NCBI RefSeq assembly: GCF_003334255.1
Contig: NZ_QOWU01000020.1
From: Escherichia coli
GTDB taxonomy: Bacteria > Pseudomonadota > Gammaproteobacteria > Enterobacterales > Enterobacteriaceae
DNA length: 64,000 nucleotides
Strand: one strand, 5' to 3'
Position 1 is the stretch's first letter; each line of letters opens with the position of its first letter. Shown one piece after another: positions 59,774-64,000 of this stretch. The notes under the pieces are model-generated. The model made no database searches. It had not been told where the DNA came from and was given only the letters and a program-made list of their open reading frames with translations. The position numbers were made by a program, and so were the translations under genes.

Positions 59774-61501
59774 TCACTGACTGATGTCAGTCACACCATC
59801 CGCCAGTTCAATCAGGCGAATAAATTCCGCCCTGTAACCCTGTGGATCTTCCCCTTTTGCCTGCTGAGCCCACTGTTTGATCTGCTGCCAGGAGGTATTG
59901 TTCAGGTATTCAGAACCGCGTAACTTTTGCCCATATGCAGCTACTGCTGCGCGAAAACGCATATCTTCAGAGGGCGCGTTTATTGTTGGCCCCAGCGGGA
60001 ATTCAACTAACTGACTTTCTTTTCCCTGCGGGTATTTCCAGCGAATTTTTAACCAGGCCAGTTCTTTCGTTTTGTCCGATTTCGCTAATTTGTTATCCGG
60101 GGCATAGCGTAACTTATCAATTGATGCTTTTTGCCCGTTCAGCGTTAATTCGAATAACAACGTTATATGTTTGCCTGCGCCTATATCCCCTGCATCAACG
60201 TTGTCGTTATTAAAATGTTCCACCCGAAGTTGGCGCTTTTCATAACCAATCTGACGGTATTCCGTTACCCACGCGGGGTTAAACTCAATTTGCGCTTTGA
60301 CATCTTTTGCTACGGTAATCAACATCTGCCGCATTTCACTATTCAATACTTTCTGCGCTTCAGAGAGGGTATCAATGTAGCTGTAGTTGCCGTTACCAAC
60401 ATCGGCAATTCGCACCATCATTGCCTCGTTGTAATTGCTATTCCCCACGCCAAACGTCGACAGAGTAACACCAGACTCCCGCTGTTTTTTGACCATTGAT
60501 TCAATCGATTTTGGATCGTCAATGCCAACGTTAAAGTCACCGTCAGTGGCTAATAAAATGCGATTGATGCCGCCCTTAATAAACCCCTTCGTCGCCTGCT
60601 GATAAGCCAGTTCCAGCCCGGCACCGCCATTGGTACTGCCTTCGGCATCCAGCGAATCAATTGCGGCATTAATTTCCGCCTTATGACTCCCGGAGATAGA
60701 AGGCAATGCAATACGGGAGTCGCCAGCGTAGGTCACGATGGCAATGTTATCCTGCTCACGAAGTTCTTTGACCAATAATTTCAACGAAGACTGGATAAGT
60801 GGCAAACGTTCATCAGAAATCATTGAACCAGAAGTGTCGATAAGAAAGACCAGATTAGAAGCTGGTAACTCTTCACTTTTGCGATCTTTCGCCAGGATAT
60901 CAACTTTCAGCAATGTTCGCTGTTCATTCCATGGTGCAGGTGCCAATTCGTAGCGCATAGCGAAAGGTATTGGCTTAGAGGCCGGAATAGATTGTTTGTC
61001 TTTGATATCCCAATCAGACGGGAAATAATTGACTATCTCCTCCACCCGCACAGCGTCTGGCGGAGGTAACAGCCCTTGATTGAGGAAACGCCTTACATTC
61101 GCATAACTGCCAGTGTCAACGTCAAGACTAAACGTCGCCAACGGATTTTGCGCTACCTGCTTAACCGGATTATCATCGAACTGCTGGTAGCGAGCGGTTC
61201 CTGGATTTGCGATATGTGTAGCTTTTGCTTTAGCCGCTCTTGCAAATGTTGGCGCTTCCTGCAATCGCCCCTGTAAAGCCTGTTTGTCTGAATATTGTTG
61301 CACTTCTTGCTGGGCCAAGGCTTTCGCGGCGGCGGCGCTTTGCTCAGCCTCTTTTATTGCAGCTTGCTGCGCGGCAAGCACTTGCTGCTCTGTGGGAGTA
61401 CTGGGTTGTTGTTGCTGACTTTCCTTATTCTCAGGTTGCGGCCCACATCCTGACAAAATCAAACTACTCATAAGCAACATGATTATATTTTTATTTCGCA
61501 T
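59774..61501 (-). CDS. yfbK: von Willebrand factor type A domain lipoprotein
   Basis: 575-aa ORF; lipobox LSGC; MIDAS motif DTSGSM (LVFLIDTSGSM). Confidence 0.8.
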   Translation of the reverse strand: MRNKNIIMLLMSSLILSGCGPQPENKESQQQQPSTPTEQQVLAAQQAAIKEAEQSAAAAKALAQQEVQQYSDKQALQGRLQEAPTFARAAKAKATHIANPGTARYQQFDDNPVKQVAQNPLATFSLDVDTGSYANVRRFLNQGLLPPPDAVRVEEIVNYFPSDWDIKDKQSIPASKPIPFAMRYELAPAPWNEQRTLLKVDILAKDRKSEELPASNLVFLIDTSGSMISDERLPLIQSSLKLLVKELREQDNIAIVTYAGDSRIALPSISGSHKAEINAAIDSLDAEGSTNGGAGLELAYQQATKGFIKGGINRILLATDGDFNVGIDDPKSIESMVKKQRESGVTLSTFGVGNSNYNEAMMVRIADVGNGNYSYIDTLSEAQKVLNSEMRQMLITVAKDVKAQIEFNPAWVTEYRQIGYEKRQLRVEHFNNDNVDAGDIGAGKHITLLFELTLNGQKASIDKLRYAPDNKLAKSDKTKELAWLKIRWKYPQGKESQLVEFPLGPTINAPSEDMRFRAAVAAYGQKLRGSEYLNNTSWQQIKQWAQQAKGEDPQGYRAEFIRLIELADGVTDISQ

Positions 61502-61638
61502 ATAAAATCCTTTTAAATAAACTCAGGCACCAGACATAAAATATACTCTTTGTATAATCCTGCTAATCTTAATAAAATACAATATCGAAACCCATAGCAA
61601 ATAATGATTCAACAACGCAACCCATTAATAATTTGCAT

Positions 61639-62610
61639 ATGAAAAAAATAATCTTTGCTTTTATTATATTATTTGTATTTTTACTCCCTATGATTATTTT
61701 TTACCAACCCTGGGTCAATGCATTACCGTCAACGCCCCGACACGCAAGTCCTGAGCAATTAGAAAAAACAGTTCGTTATCTTACACAAACTGTGCATCCA
61801 CGTAGTGCCGACAATATTGATAATCTGAATAGGTCCGCAGAATATATAAAAGAGGTCTTTGTCAGTAGCGGTGCCAGAGTTACCTCGCAGGACGTCCCCA
61901 TTACGGGTGGCCCCTACAAAAACATTGTTGCTGATTATGGTCCTGCCGATGGACCGCTGATTATTATTGGTGCGCATTATGACTCTGCCAGCAGTTATGA
62001 AAACGATCAATTGACCTATACGCCGGGCGCGGATGATAACGCCAGCGGTGTGGCAGGATTACTCGAACTGGCACGTTTGTTACATCAGCAAGTACCGAAA
62101 ACAGGCGTGCAGCTGGTCGCCTATGCGTCGGAAGAACCGCCCTTCTTTCGTAGCGATGAAATGGGGAGCGCGGTGCATGCAGCTTCGCTTGAGCGTCCAG
62201 TGAAATTAATGATAGCACTGGAGATGATTGGCTATTACGACTCTGCGCCTGGAAGCCAGAATTACCCTTACCCGGCAATGTCCTGGCTTTATCCCGATCG
62301 GGGAGACTTTATTGCCGTGGTCGGCAGAATACAGGATATCAACGCCGTTCGTCAGGTAAAAGCGGCATTGTTGTCATCTCAGGATTTATCTGTTTATTCT
62401 ATGAATACCCCAGGGTTTATTCCCGGTATTGATTTCTCTGACCACCTGAATTATTGGCAACACGATATTCCCGCCATAATGATTACTGACACCGCTTTTT
62501 ATCGTAATAAACAATACCACTTGCCCGGTGATACCGCAGACAGATTGAATTATCAGAAAATGGCTCAGGTAGTGGATGGTGTTACAACTTTGTTATACAA
62601 CAGTAAATAA
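61639..62610 (+). CDS. yfbL: M28-family zinc peptidase
   Basis: Track ORF starts 61633; start at MKKIIFAFIILFV (323 aa); metal-ligand motifs HYDS… and GADDNASG. Confidence 0.75.
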   Translation: MKKIIFAFIILFVFLLPMIIFYQPWVNALPSTPRHASPEQLEKTVRYLTQTVHPRSADNIDNLNRSAEYIKEVFVSSGARVTSQDVPITGGPYKNIVADYGPADGPLIIIGAHYDSASSYENDQLTYTPGADDNASGVAGLLELARLLHQQVPKTGVQLVAYASEEPPFFRSDEMGSAVHAASLERPVKLMIALEMIGYYDSAPGSQNYPYPAMSWLYPDRGDFIAVVGRIQDINAVRQVKAALLSSQDLSVYSMNTPGFIPGIDFSDHLNYWQHDIPAIMITDTAFYRNKQYHLPGDTADRLNYQKMAQVVDGVTTLLYNSK

Positions 62611-62712
62611 TAAAAATTTCTCGAGGCGGGTCCAGAAAAAGCGACATGCACATTTTATTTTCCCTCATCTGTTTTAAGATGCGAAACATGAAATTCAACG
62701 GAGGAAAAATAA

Positions 62713-63216
62713 ATGGGAATGATTGGCTATTTTGCAGAAATTGACTCAGAAAAGATTAACCAACTGCTTGAGTCTACTGAAAAACCTTTGATGGATAATA
62801 TACATGACACGCTTTCAGGATTACGCCGACTGGATATTGATAAACGCTGGGATTTTTTACACTTTGGGCTGACAGGCACCTCTGCTTTTGATCCCGCGAA
62901 GAATGATCCGCTGAGTCGTGCCGTGCTTGGTGAACACAGCCTCGAAGATGGCATAGATGGCTTCCTTGGATTGACCTGGAATCAGGAGTTAGCCGCGACA
63001 ATCGACCGACTGGAATCACTGGATCGAAATGAACTGCGTAAACAGTTTTCCATTAAGCGACTCAATGAAATGGAGATTTATCCGGGAGTGACCTTTTCAG
63101 AAGAGTTAGAGGGGCAACTCTTTGCCTCGATCATGCTTGATATGGAAAAGCTGATTAGCGCGTATCGACGTATGCTGCGACAAGGGAATCATGCGCTGAC
63201 GGTTATTGTTGGGTGA
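62713..63216 (+). CDS. yfbM: Uncharacterised cytoplasmic protein
   Basis: 167-aa ORF with plausible RBS (GGAGGAAAAATAAATG); no recognisable catalytic motif. Confidence 0.65.
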   Translation: MGMIGYFAEIDSEKINQLLESTEKPLMDNIHDTLSGLRRLDIDKRWDFLHFGLTGTSAFDPAKNDPLSRAVLGEHSLEDGIDGFLGLTWNQELAATIDRLESLDRNELRKQFSIKRLNEMEIYPGVTFSEELEGQLFASIMLDMEKLISAYRRMLRQGNHALTVIVG

Positions 63217-63488
63217 TATAGCTTGATGCCTGGGGGAGAAAGACCCATTAGTTAAGATTTACGCCAGGATCATCTTGAAAAAATCTTTAACCATGGTCCG
63301 GTTTTTATCCCCTTGTATAAATATTACTAAATGCTTGCTTAGTCGCATTGTTAAATGCAATACCGTATATTCGGTATGTAACAGCGATATCCTCTGTGCT
63401 GGCAACGATCTGTCATGCTTGATGAAAACGGAATTGAACCTGTCATTACCAGGTAGATAAAAAGCCTGTTCAATTTTGGGATTATTTT

Positions 63489-64000
63489 TTATAACTCGTG
63501 TCTGTTATGGCGACACGGGAAAACATCAATATTGTCCTTCACAAATTGCAGTAATATAGAATCAACCTCTCTTGCAAGTTGGTCACAATGTATTATAAGC
63601 ATTTTGAATATGTCATCCTCTGTAATCTCGTGAAAATTTTCGGCCTTGTCTTTTAGCTCATCATATCGGATTCTTGCAGTAACCATTTTTTGGGCGAGTT
63701 CTAATAACCCCAAAGCTTGCAATTGCTGGTGAGTATGATCACTTTCAAAAAATATCCCACACTCCATTCCTTCCCAACCAACATATTCATGCCATTCATA
63801 AACCAGCATAAATGTTTGTAAAACTGGCGGTAATAATTGGATATCTGCAAAACCAAACCAAAACTTACGCTTGAGATCCCACTCATATTCAATCGCCAAT
63901 GCTATATTGTTTAAGGCATCTCCGGTGATGCTGCCAACTTACTGATTTAGTGTATGATGGTGTTTTTGAGGTGCTCCAGTGGCTTCTGTTTCTATCAGCT
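63489..64000 (-). CDS. yfbN: Uncharacterised protein, 3' portion only (5' end beyond window)
   Basis: Track ORF 63489..63899 stays open in frame to the window edge. Confidence 0.55.

What the first reader, a model, noticed from the sequence alone, without database searches (positions are those of the whole stretch)
59774..64000. yfbK-yfbL-yfbM-yfbN: vWA-domain lipoprotein, M28 peptidase and two unknowns forming an uncharacterised envelope cluster
Seen in sequence: YfbK is a 575-aa lipoprotein (lipobox LSGC) with a von Willebrand A domain and intact MIDAS motif (DTSGSM), preceded by a Gln/Ala-rich coiled region. YfbL, transcribed divergently, has a signal/anchor sequence and M28 zinc-peptidase ligand motifs (HYDS…, GADDNASG). 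YfbM and YfbN are small proteins without recognisable motifs. The cluster is moderately AT-rich, adjacent to elaD and separated from it by a strong bidirectional terminator. Inference: vWA plus protease combinations in bacterial envelopes are typical of adhesion, signalling or defence-associated modules; none of these four genes has an assigned function.
Basis: partly seen in the sequence, partly recalled or inferred. Interest (0 to 1): 0.5.

Follow-up and report, generated by a model that had tools for sequence, protein, structure and literature searches.

The report
Four neighbouring, unlinked E. coli y-genes
This stretch holds four already catalogued but functionally unassigned E. coli K-12 genes (yfbK, yfbL, yfbM and a yfbN cut short by an IS1 element). 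They lie side by side in a variable part of the chromosome and do not form one conserved envelope system.

Summary
The ORFs and motifs are real. The locus is the K-12-type rbn-elaD-yfbK-yfbL-yfbM-yfbN segment.

- **YfbK** is a lipobox protein with an A/Q-rich linker and a three-domain core (PF12450 + VWA with complete MIDAS + YfbK_C).
- **YfbL** is a membrane-anchored M28 metallopeptidase with all metal ligands.
- **YfbM** is not motif-less: it is DUF1877 and identical to PDB 1RYL.
- **yfbN** is present only as its 3' part (63489-63925) and is then interrupted by IS1. The intact 238-aa protein models as two UBA-like bundles plus a DMP19-like domain.

YfbM and YfbN have no export signal, so "envelope cluster" fits at most yfbK and yfbL.

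Gene frequencies in 5,426 complete E. coli genomes differ: yfbM 99%, yfbL 61%, yfbK 46%, yfbN 18%. In E. coli yfbK almost never occurs without yfbL, but Salmonella and E. whittamii keep yfbK without yfbL.

None of 9 more distant YfbK loci has an M28 neighbour. Four of them have an overlapping ECF sigma gene, which matches the published ECF289 anti-sigma class (DUF3520 + vWA). PADLOC found no defence-system match.

A preprint reports that yfbL and yfbO deletions make cells resistant to phage N4.

Verdict: known genes, a mosaic variable region and not one module. Interest is low.

The parts
59721..59754 (.). Perfect 34-nt palindrome (15-bp stem, 4-nt loop) in the elaD/yfbK convergent spacer. Possibly a shared transcript-end hairpin.
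   Evidence: Sequence. RNA fold gives -29.6 kcal/mol, z -8.6. The terminator scan did not call it because there is no T-run.
59774..61501 (-). yfbK: 575-aa predicted lipoprotein with an A/Q-rich linker and a vWF_A-N + VWA (MIDAS) + YfbK_C core.
61445..61456 (-). Lipobox L-S-G-C (residues 16-19). Cys19 is followed by Gly, not Asp.
   Evidence: Salmonella and Vibrio homologues also have a lipobox.
60824..60838 (-). MIDAS DxSxS (D222-T-S-G-S226). The other MIDAS residues are T290 (STNGG) and D320 (LATDGD).
   Evidence: These columns are invariant in the 7-sequence, 4-phylum alignment A2.
59798..60325 (-). YfbK_C (formerly DUF3520) domain, residues 393-568.
   Evidence: Pfam E 6e-66. The same domain is present in the Rhizobium sigma-linked homologue.
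61502..61638 (.). AT-rich spacer between divergent yfbK and yfbL (27.5% GC over 61502-61632).
   Evidence: One promoter-like site on the + strand, with hexamers spanning 61531-61558 (consensus match only).
61639..62610 (+). yfbL: 323-aa M28 family metallopeptidase with an N-terminal membrane anchor or signal sequence.
   Evidence: Alignment to Vibrio/Aeromonas-type leucyl aminopeptidase structures conserves the H, D, EE, (D->E) and H ligand positions.
62713..63216 (+). yfbM: 167-aa DUF1877 protein, cytoplasmic, with a solved structure (1RYL).
   Evidence: Present in 5,356 of 5,426 complete E. coli genomes.
63489..63925 (-). 3' fragment of yfbN (about codons 94-238 of 238).
   Evidence: Alignment to intact yfbN in strain KR2009 stops at window position 63925. 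An upstream in-frame stop is followed by IS1 sequence.
63926..64000 (.). Terminus of an IS1 element inserted in yfbN.
   Evidence: 98.8-100% matches to IS1 family transposase elements in many records (H8-H12). This junction is found in none of 5,426 complete genomes.

Best explanation
The segment is the K-12 version of a mosaic, variable chromosomal interval between rbn/elaD and nuoN. It carries four separately evolving genes, not one system.

1. **YfbK** is an exported lipoprotein. By the +2 rule it is predicted to be outer-membrane anchored and periplasm-facing.
   - A roughly 80-residue A/Q-rich spacer holds out a strongly conserved three-domain, ITIH-like vWA core with a complete MIDAS site.
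   - The same core forms the periplasmic part of the anti-sigma factors paired with ECF289-type sigma factors in Rhizobium and Azotobacter.
   - In enterobacteria it has lost, or never had, the cytoplasmic anti-sigma segment and the sigma gene.
   - It most likely acts as a metal-dependent ligand or protein-binding adaptor in the periplasm without direct transcriptional output (inferred).
2. **YfbL** is an inner-membrane-tethered, periplasm-facing di-zinc M28 aminopeptidase. All ligands are present.
   - A preprint shows that its loss, and the loss of yfbO, blocks phage N4 plating. It probably trims or matures an envelope protein that N4 entry needs (inferred).
3. **YfbM** is a cytoplasmic DUF1877 protein and a near-core E. 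coli gene, unrelated to the others.
4. **YfbN** is a cytoplasmic, rare accessory protein with two UBA-like bundles plus a DMP19-like helical domain. It is probably a protein-binding or inhibitor-type protein. In this strain it is inactivated by IS1.
For: **Identity and annotation:**. **Domains:**

**Different frequencies in 5,426 E. coli genomes:**
- yfbK 2,514
- yfbL 3,293
- yfbM 5,356
- yfbN 971

**Alternative haplotypes:**
- rbn-elaD'-yfbL-yfbM-nuoN
- rbn-elaD-yfbL pseudogene-yfbM-nuoN

**Other species:**
- Salmonella: yfbK with no yfbL
- E. whittamii: yfbK with only a yfbL remnant
- Superficieibacter: no yfbM

**Distant homologues:**
- None of 9 distant YfbK loci has a YfbL homologue.
- 4 of 9 have an overlapping upstream ECF sigma gene.
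- The ECF289 anti-sigma factor is described as DUF3520 fused to vWA in PMC7826278.
- Distant YfbL homologues have no vWA neighbour.

**Per-protein evidence:**
- The YfbK core has 64% mean column identity across 4 phyla.
- YfbL metal ligands.
- N4 phenotype with complementation: bioRxiv 10.1101/2025.09.29.679331.
- YfbM and YfbN have no hydrophobic segment.
Against: - Within E. coli, yfbK is almost perfectly nested in yfbL. Of 2,514 genomes with yfbK, 2,512 carry the intact pair.
- The divergent yfbK-yfbL pair survives at 62-66% protein identity in Superficieibacter. Some functional coupling of these two genes is therefore not excluded.
- The sample of distant loci is small (9) and drawn from plasmid records, 113 of 131 of which are Rhizobium.
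- No localisation, activity or binding data exist for any of the four proteins.
- The N4 phenotype comes from one preprint that used Keio mutants.
- The outer-membrane assignment of YfbK rests only on the +2 rule.
Confidence: 0.72

Rival explanations
1. yfbK and yfbL form a two-gene envelope module, a divergon sharing one regulatory spacer. The M28 peptidase would process the vWA lipoprotein or its ligand. yfbM and yfbN would be bystanders.
For: - The two genes are divergent, with an AT-rich spacer between them (131 bp, ORF to ORF).
- The pair is conserved in E. albertii, Escherichia sp. and Superficieibacter.
- In E. coli, 2,512 of 2,514 yfbK-positive genomes also have intact yfbL. Independence would predict about 1,526.
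- Both proteins are exported.
Against: - Salmonella keeps yfbK (60% identity) with no yfbL.
- E. whittamii keeps yfbK but has only yfbL remnants.
- About 781 E. coli genomes keep yfbL without yfbK.
- None of 9 distant YfbK loci and none of 3 distant YfbL loci shows the pairing.
- The nestedness in E. coli can come from a few ancestral deletions of physically adjacent DNA.
- The N4 screen recovered yfbL and yfbO, and the passages read do not mention yfbK.
Confidence: 0.2
2. The cluster is an anti-phage defence or other conflict island, in which the vWA protein and the protease act together as sensor and effector.
For: - Low GC and variable presence in a hotspot between core genes.
- Neighbours include the ElaD deubiquitinase and small acidic proteins.
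Against: - None of the seven island proteins has a PADLOC match.
- PHROG matches are only weak and generic, to the vWA and M28 domains.
- The genes are on alternating strands.
- Deleting yfbL makes cells resistant to N4, not more sensitive. That is host-factor behaviour.
- The vWA core's recurrent partner elsewhere is an ECF sigma factor.
Confidence: 0.03
3. YfbK still works as a signalling sensor in E. coli. It would be a lipoprotein analogue of the ECF289 anti-sigma factor that passes a periplasmic signal to a regulator encoded elsewhere, much as RcsF does.
For: - The core is 44-48% identical to sigma-linked homologues and conserved across phyla.
- A lipoprotein version lies about 250 nt from a sigma-70-family gene in Vibrio coralliilyticus.
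Against: - E. coli YfbK has no transmembrane or cytoplasmic segment.
- No sigma gene lies in the enterobacterial loci.
- The gene is missing from 54% of E. coli genomes.
- No regulatory phenotype has been reported.
Confidence: 0.1

Closest known systems
ECF289-associated anti-sigma factors (DUF3520/YfbK_C fused to vWA; Casas-Pastor et al. 2021, PMC7826278)
   Same: They share the three-domain periplasmic core PF12450 + VWA + PF12034. The core is 42-47% identical to E. coli YfbK over residues ~100-571. It is preceded by a low-complexity spacer.
   Different: The Rhizobium and Azotobacter proteins are about 690-700 aa. They have a roughly 65-aa cytoplasmic N-terminus and a transmembrane helix, and their genes overlap an upstream ECF sigma gene. 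E. coli YfbK has a lipoprotein signal instead and no sigma partner.
Inter-alpha-trypsin inhibitor heavy chains, Cav alpha2-delta and Bacteroides BatB (MIDAS vWA proteins)
   Different: Only the vWA domain and part of the flanking sandwich align. Sequence identity is 14-27%. The YfbK model has only moderate confidence (pLDDT 78.5, 7-sequence alignment).
M28 leucyl aminopeptidases (Vibrio proteolyticus/Aeromonas AAP 1AMP/1RTQ, Bacillus 2EK8; Legionella LapA)
   Same: Peptidase_M28 fold with conserved His, Asp, Glu-Glu, acidic and His metal-ligand positions.
   Different: YfbL scores far below every NCBIfam equivalog cut-off (50 bits against 600 for LapA). It has a membrane anchor rather than a cleaved pro-peptide. 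One ligand is Glu instead of Asp. The substrate is unknown.
DUF1877 / YfbM family (PDB 1RYL)
   Same: The window's YfbM is identical to the crystallised protein and matches the full-length Pfam model.
   Different: Nothing differs. The family itself has no known function.
DMP19 DNA-mimic protein of Neisseria (3WUR/3VJZ; DUF4375) and UBA-like domains (EF-Ts N-terminus, Dcn1, p47)
   Different: No significant sequence match: DMP19 Pfam appears only weakly, in 3 of 70 family members. DNA mimicry and ubiquitin binding are untested. Bacterial UBA-like folds need not bind ubiquitin.

Membership tests
YfbK-type vWA proteins (PF12450 + PF00092 + PF12034) | All three Pfam domains present in order | tested here: met
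   E 2e-32, 4e-22 and 6e-66.
MIDAS-containing vWA domains | DxSxS ... T ... D metal-ion-dependent adhesion site | tested here: met
   D222-x-S224-x-S226, T290 and D320. These columns are invariant in alignment A2.
Bacterial lipoproteins | Signal peptide ending in a lipobox L-[AS]-[GA]-C | tested here: met
   LSGC at residues 16-19, after a hydrophobic stretch.
Bacterial lipoproteins | Lipid modification and membrane localisation shown | not testable with these tools
   The sequence only allows prediction. Gly at +2 suggests Lol-dependent outer-membrane sorting (established +2 rule, from my own knowledge).
ECF289 anti-sigma factors | Periplasmic DUF3520 + vWA module | tested here: met
ECF289 anti-sigma factors | Cytoplasmic anti-sigma segment plus a transmembrane helix | tested here: not met
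   E. coli YfbK starts directly with a lipoprotein signal peptide. The Rhizobium protein has a 65-aa N-terminus plus a TM helix.
ECF289 anti-sigma factors | Adjacent, co-transcribed ECF sigma gene | tested here: not met
   No sigma homologue in the Escherichia, Superficieibacter or Salmonella loci. One is present in 4 of 9 distant loci.
Peptidase family M28 | Pfam Peptidase_M28 match | tested here: met
   E 9e-25 over residues 97-318.
Peptidase family M28 | Co-catalytic metal ligands H, D, E, D/E, H and the catalytic Glu | tested here: met
   H115 (HYDS), D134 or D135 (GADDNASG), E167-E168, E197 (Asp in AAP) and H271 aligned to 1AMP/2EK8. Numbering is on the 325-aa ORF.
Peptidase family M28 | Peptidase activity and substrate | not testable with these tools
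   No assay data were found in the literature searched.
DUF1877 (YfbM family) | Full-length Pfam match and identity to 1RYL | tested here: met
DMP19-like (DUF4375) proteins | Significant sequence match to PF14300 | tested here: not met
   No hit for E. coli YfbN. Hits are weak (E 0.005-0.1) in 3 of 70 relatives.
DMP19-like (DUF4375) proteins | Shared fold | tested here: inconclusive
UBA-like domains | Three-helix bundle with a UBA-type sequence profile | tested here: inconclusive
Known anti-phage defence systems (PADLOC-DB v2) | Any component model matched | tested here: not met
   No families matched for ElaD or YfbK through YfbP.
Conserved gene cluster or operon | Same-strand or consistently linked genes across taxa | tested here: not met
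   Alternating strands. Frequencies are 46%, 61%, 99% and 18% in E. coli. Linkage is lost in Salmonella, E. whittamii and all distant loci.
Rho-independent (intrinsic) terminator | GC-rich stem followed by a U-run | tested here: inconclusive
   The stem is present (15 bp, -29.6 kcal/mol). There is no run of at least 5 T within 8 nt on either strand, and the scan did not call it.
IS1 | Terminal sequence identical to IS1 ends | tested here: met
   Window 63926-64000 matches IS1A/IS1B-annotated elements at 98.8-100% (H8-H12).

The most novel reading that the evidence does not exclude
YfbK and YfbL (with YfbO) could form a previously unrecognised periplasmic pathway. A lipoprotein derived from an ECF289-type anti-sigma sensor module, together with a membrane-anchored M28 aminopeptidase, would mature or organise an envelope component that phage N4 needs for entry, for example in the NfrA/NfrB receptor pathway. 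A looser variant is that the low-GC island elaD-yfbN-yfbP is a remnant of a host-interaction island. This would connect a deubiquitinase, a tandem UBA-like protein and a TPR protein with faint resemblance to T3SS chaperones.
Probability: 0.1. Interest if true: 0.5.

Novelty: already known. Interest (0 to 1): 0.2.

Why it matters
These are long-annotated K-12 y-genes, so the locus itself is not a discovery.

What this analysis adds:
- It removes a tempting but unsupported guilt-by-adjacency inference.
- It places YfbK as an orphan lipoprotein copy of the sensor module of a published anti-sigma class.
- It gives YfbN a first structural description (tandem UBA-like + DMP19-like).
- It notes that in this strain yfbN is broken by IS1.

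If the preprint's N4 phenotype for yfbL and yfbO holds, YfbL would be the most tractable entry point for assigning a function in this region.

Tried and rejected
1. **Wider YfbK homologue searches.** Two homologous-protein searches, one with the single sequence and one with the 7-sequence profile, were saturated by Escherichia and Salmonella clusters. They gave no distant relatives. An earlier attempt timed out.
2. **Genome-contig scan.** With the single YfbK protein it reached only 6 loci, all Escherichia or Superficieibacter. Distant contexts had to come from plasmid records, which are biased towards Rhizobium.
3. **Defence-system hypothesis.** PADLOC gave no match and PHROGs gave only weak matches to families with no defence annotation.
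4. **Contexts of YfbN relatives.** Hymenobacter plasmids and three metagenomic or genomic contigs showed no recurring neighbour.
5. **NEL E3 ligase idea for YfbN.** One AFDB relative carries a 'Novel E3 ligase domain' label. A profile search against PDB gave no NEL, IpaH or SspH hit, and no NEL family appears among the Pfam families listed for 70 relatives. The label was treated as spurious.
6. **Literature on DUF1877, YfbM and YfbK.** Only screen-list mentions were found:
   - rifampin-induced persisters
   - low conjugation efficiency
   - an LldR SELEX peak inside yfbK
   - a sigma-32 ChIP signal between yfbM and yfbN
7. **Metagenome-contig scan.** I decided not to spend it. The linkage question was already answered and the sigma association is already published.

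
Full report
**What is there**

The last 4.2 kb of the window is the E. coli K-12-type locus downstream of menF-elaB-elaA-rbn-elaD. A megablast of 59600-64000 against 5,426 complete E. coli genomes gives 99.6-99.9% matches. These are annotated yfbK (vWA domain-containing protein), yfbL (M28 family metallopeptidase), yfbM (YfbM family protein) and yfbN.

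The ORFs are:
- yfbK: 59774-61501 (-), 575 aa
- yfbL: 61633-62610 (+), with the annotated ATG at 61639 giving 323 aa
- yfbM: 62713-63216 (+), 167 aa

yfbN is not intact in this window. The match to intact strains stops at 63925, and the final 75 bases are an IS1 terminus. Intact yfbN is 717 nt and encodes 238 aa. The window therefore holds only about codons 94-238, and the 136-aa ORF in the ORF list is a fragment. This exact yfbN::IS1 junction occurs in none of the 5,426 complete genomes.

Correct:
- Lipobox LSGC at residues 16-19, MIDAS DTSGSM at 222-227 (with T290 and D320), and an Ala/Gln-rich stretch that makes up 44% of residues 20-100.
- YfbK Pfam domains PF12450, VWA and YfbK_C.
- YfbL's hydrophobic N-terminus, the HYDS and GADDNASG motifs, and Peptidase_M28 at E 9e-25.
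- Alignment of YfbL to solved leucyl aminopeptidases conserves all metal-ligand positions and the Glu-Glu pair. One ligand is Asp-to-Glu.
- GC is 45-47% for yfbK/L/M and 38% for yfbN, against 52% for the rest of the window.
- A perfect 15-bp-stem palindrome lies between elaD and yfbK (59721-59754; -29.6 kcal/mol, z -8.6).

Not correct or not verified:
- YfbM is DUF1877 (E 3e-35) and identical to PDB 1RYL.
- YfbM and YfbN have no hydrophobic segment, so they are not envelope proteins.
- The hairpin has no U-run on either strand, and the terminator scan did not call it.

**Is it a cluster?**

The four genes lie on alternating strands (-, +, +, -). Counts of complete E. coli genomes with at least 80% of each gene:

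| Gene | Genomes (of 5,426) | Share |
|---|---|---|
| yfbK | 2,514 | 46% |
| yfbL | 3,293 | 61% |
| yfbM | 5,356 | 99% |
| yfbN | 971 | 18% |

A further ~2,060 genomes carry only part of yfbL.

Alternative haplotypes of the same interval:
- rbn-elaD'-yfbL-yfbM-nuoN in E2348/69
- rbn-elaD-(yfbL pseudogene)-yfbM-nuoN in Ec1117
- K-12 has rbn-elaD-yfbK-yfbL-yfbM-yfbN-yfbO-yfbP-nuoN

The interval between rbn and nuoN is therefore a mosaic variable region.

The yfbK + yfbL pair is intact in 2,512 genomes, so yfbK almost never occurs without yfbL in E. coli. About 781 genomes have yfbL without yfbK. This nesting can be produced by a few ancestral deletions of adjacent DNA, and I could not count independent events.

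Outside E. coli:
- E. albertii, an Escherichia sp. and Superficieibacter electus keep the divergent yfbK-yfbL pair.
- Superficieibacter lacks yfbM, and there yfbP and yfbN are adjacent to the pair.
- E. whittamii has yfbK but only remnants of yfbL.
- Salmonella has yfbK (60% identity) next to a degenerate DUF1877 fragment, with no yfbL.

**Distant relatives**

A tblastn of YfbK against plasmid records found 131 records, 113 of them Rhizobium. They match residues ~100-571 at 42-48% identity.

Nine loci outside Escherichia and Superficieibacter were inspected:
- None has a YfbL homologue.
- Four have an ECF-type sigma gene overlapping the start of a ~690-700-aa vWA protein. These are two R. etli plasmids, Rhizobium sp. 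BG6 and Azotobacter chroococcum.
- In the Vibrio locus a lipoprotein version lies about 250 nt from a sigma-70-family gene.
- Nostoc, Bacteroides, Bernardetia and Salmonella have neither an M28 gene nor an adjacent sigma gene. In the Bacteroides locus a sigma-70-family gene lies about 2.5 kb away, next to another gene.

The Rhizobium protein has the same three domains after a ~65-aa N-terminus, a transmembrane helix and a low-complexity spacer. [quoted passage not shown]

Distant YfbL homologues (31-42% identity: Manganitrophus, Nitrosococcus, Microvirga) have no vWA neighbour. No PADLOC defence model matches any protein of the island.

**YfbN**

The family is rare: 134 representative clusters among 1.84 billion proteins. 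A 70-sequence alignment gave an AF2 model at pLDDT 96 that is all-helical.

- Foldseek finds the family in Leminorella, Chitinophaga and Hymenobacter, plus a DUF4375 protein at E 9e-4.
- Sequence support is weak but consistent. Pfam UBA_4 scores E 0.003 and is weak in 22 of 70 relatives; DMP19 is weak in 3 of 70; a PDB profile search gives UBA hits at E 0.04-1.
- Neighbourhoods of relatives are not conserved.

**Literature**

No biochemical function is published for any of the four genes.
- A 2025 preprint reports that Keio yfbL and yfbO deletions resist phage N4. ASKA plasmids complement them, and they show no cross-resistance to seven other phages (10.1101/2025.09.29.679331).
- A yfbN knockout raised recombinant protein yield (PMC7376861).
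- yfbK appears in screen lists for rifampin-induced persisters and for low conjugation efficiency.
- YfbK is cited as a periplasmic vWA protein resembling the C-terminal domain of proposed TolQR-coupled vWA force transducers (PMC12204202).

**Most likely mechanism**

Shown:
- Domain content, motifs and export signals.
- Frequencies and synteny.
- The sigma linkage of homologues.

Inferred:
- YfbK is an outer-membrane-anchored, periplasm-facing lipoprotein. Its MIDAS vWA core binds a ligand in a metal-dependent way. It is an orphan copy of an anti-sigma sensor module, without transcriptional output in E. coli.
- YfbL is an inner-membrane-tethered periplasmic aminopeptidase, and its substrate matters for N4 entry.
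- YfbM and YfbN are unrelated cytoplasmic proteins.
- YfbN is probably a protein-binding or inhibitor-type factor, and it is inactive in this strain.

I put about 0.7 on "not one module" and about 0.2 on a genuine yfbK-yfbL pair.

**Verdict**

These are known genes, correctly recognised. The "uncharacterised envelope cluster" is mainly an adjacency artefact in a variable region. Interest is low (0.2) and the novelty rating is "already known".

Noticed in passing
window 63926-64000 (and yfbN fragment 63489-63925): An IS1 terminus interrupts yfbN after about codon 94. This exact junction is absent from all 5,426 complete E. coli genomes searched, although other yfbN::IS1 alleles exist (H37 and H43). 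It could serve as a strain marker.
   Followed up: partly
window 58492-59703 (elaD); L002:7890-8606 (yfbN); L002:9296-10144 (yfbP): Three proteins share the same low-GC K-12 island: the ElaD deubiquitinase (35% GC), YfbN with two UBA-like bundles, and the TPR protein YfbP. YfbP has faint NCBIfam hits to T3SS chaperones (LcrH/SycD, E 0.035). This may be coincidence or a relic of a host-interaction island.
   Followed up: no
window 59721-59754: A perfect 34-nt palindrome (TTCGACCAGTCAGCA-AATA-TGCTGACTGGTCGAA) lies between convergent elaD and yfbK. It has no U-run, and its 12-nt arm core has no other exact copy in the window (only two unrelated 1-mismatch matches).
   Followed up: partly
L001 (NEB10-beta) 2908-3978: In NEB10-beta (DH10B lineage) an IS1A element sits directly upstream of elaD and joins it to ais/nudI. 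The menF-elaB-elaA-rbn side seen in this window is not adjacent there.
   Followed up: no
L002:8815-9237 (yfbO), outside the window: YfbO (140 aa, pI 4.1, net charge -21) has no hit in NCBIfam, PADLOC, PHROGs or PDB sequences (Pfam was not run on it). Even so, its deletion is reported to give N4 resistance together with yfbL.
   Followed up: partly
L017 (Hymenobacter canadensis plasmid) 4983-10148: A YfbN homologue lies at the head of a run of small hypothetical genes of about 140-220 aa on a mobilizable plasmid. None of them resembles YfbO or YfbP by tblastn.
   Followed up: partly
window 60000-61500 (inside yfbK): A published genomic SELEX study lists an LldR binding peak inside the yfbK ORF (PMC10272880). 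Its significance is unknown.
   Followed up: no
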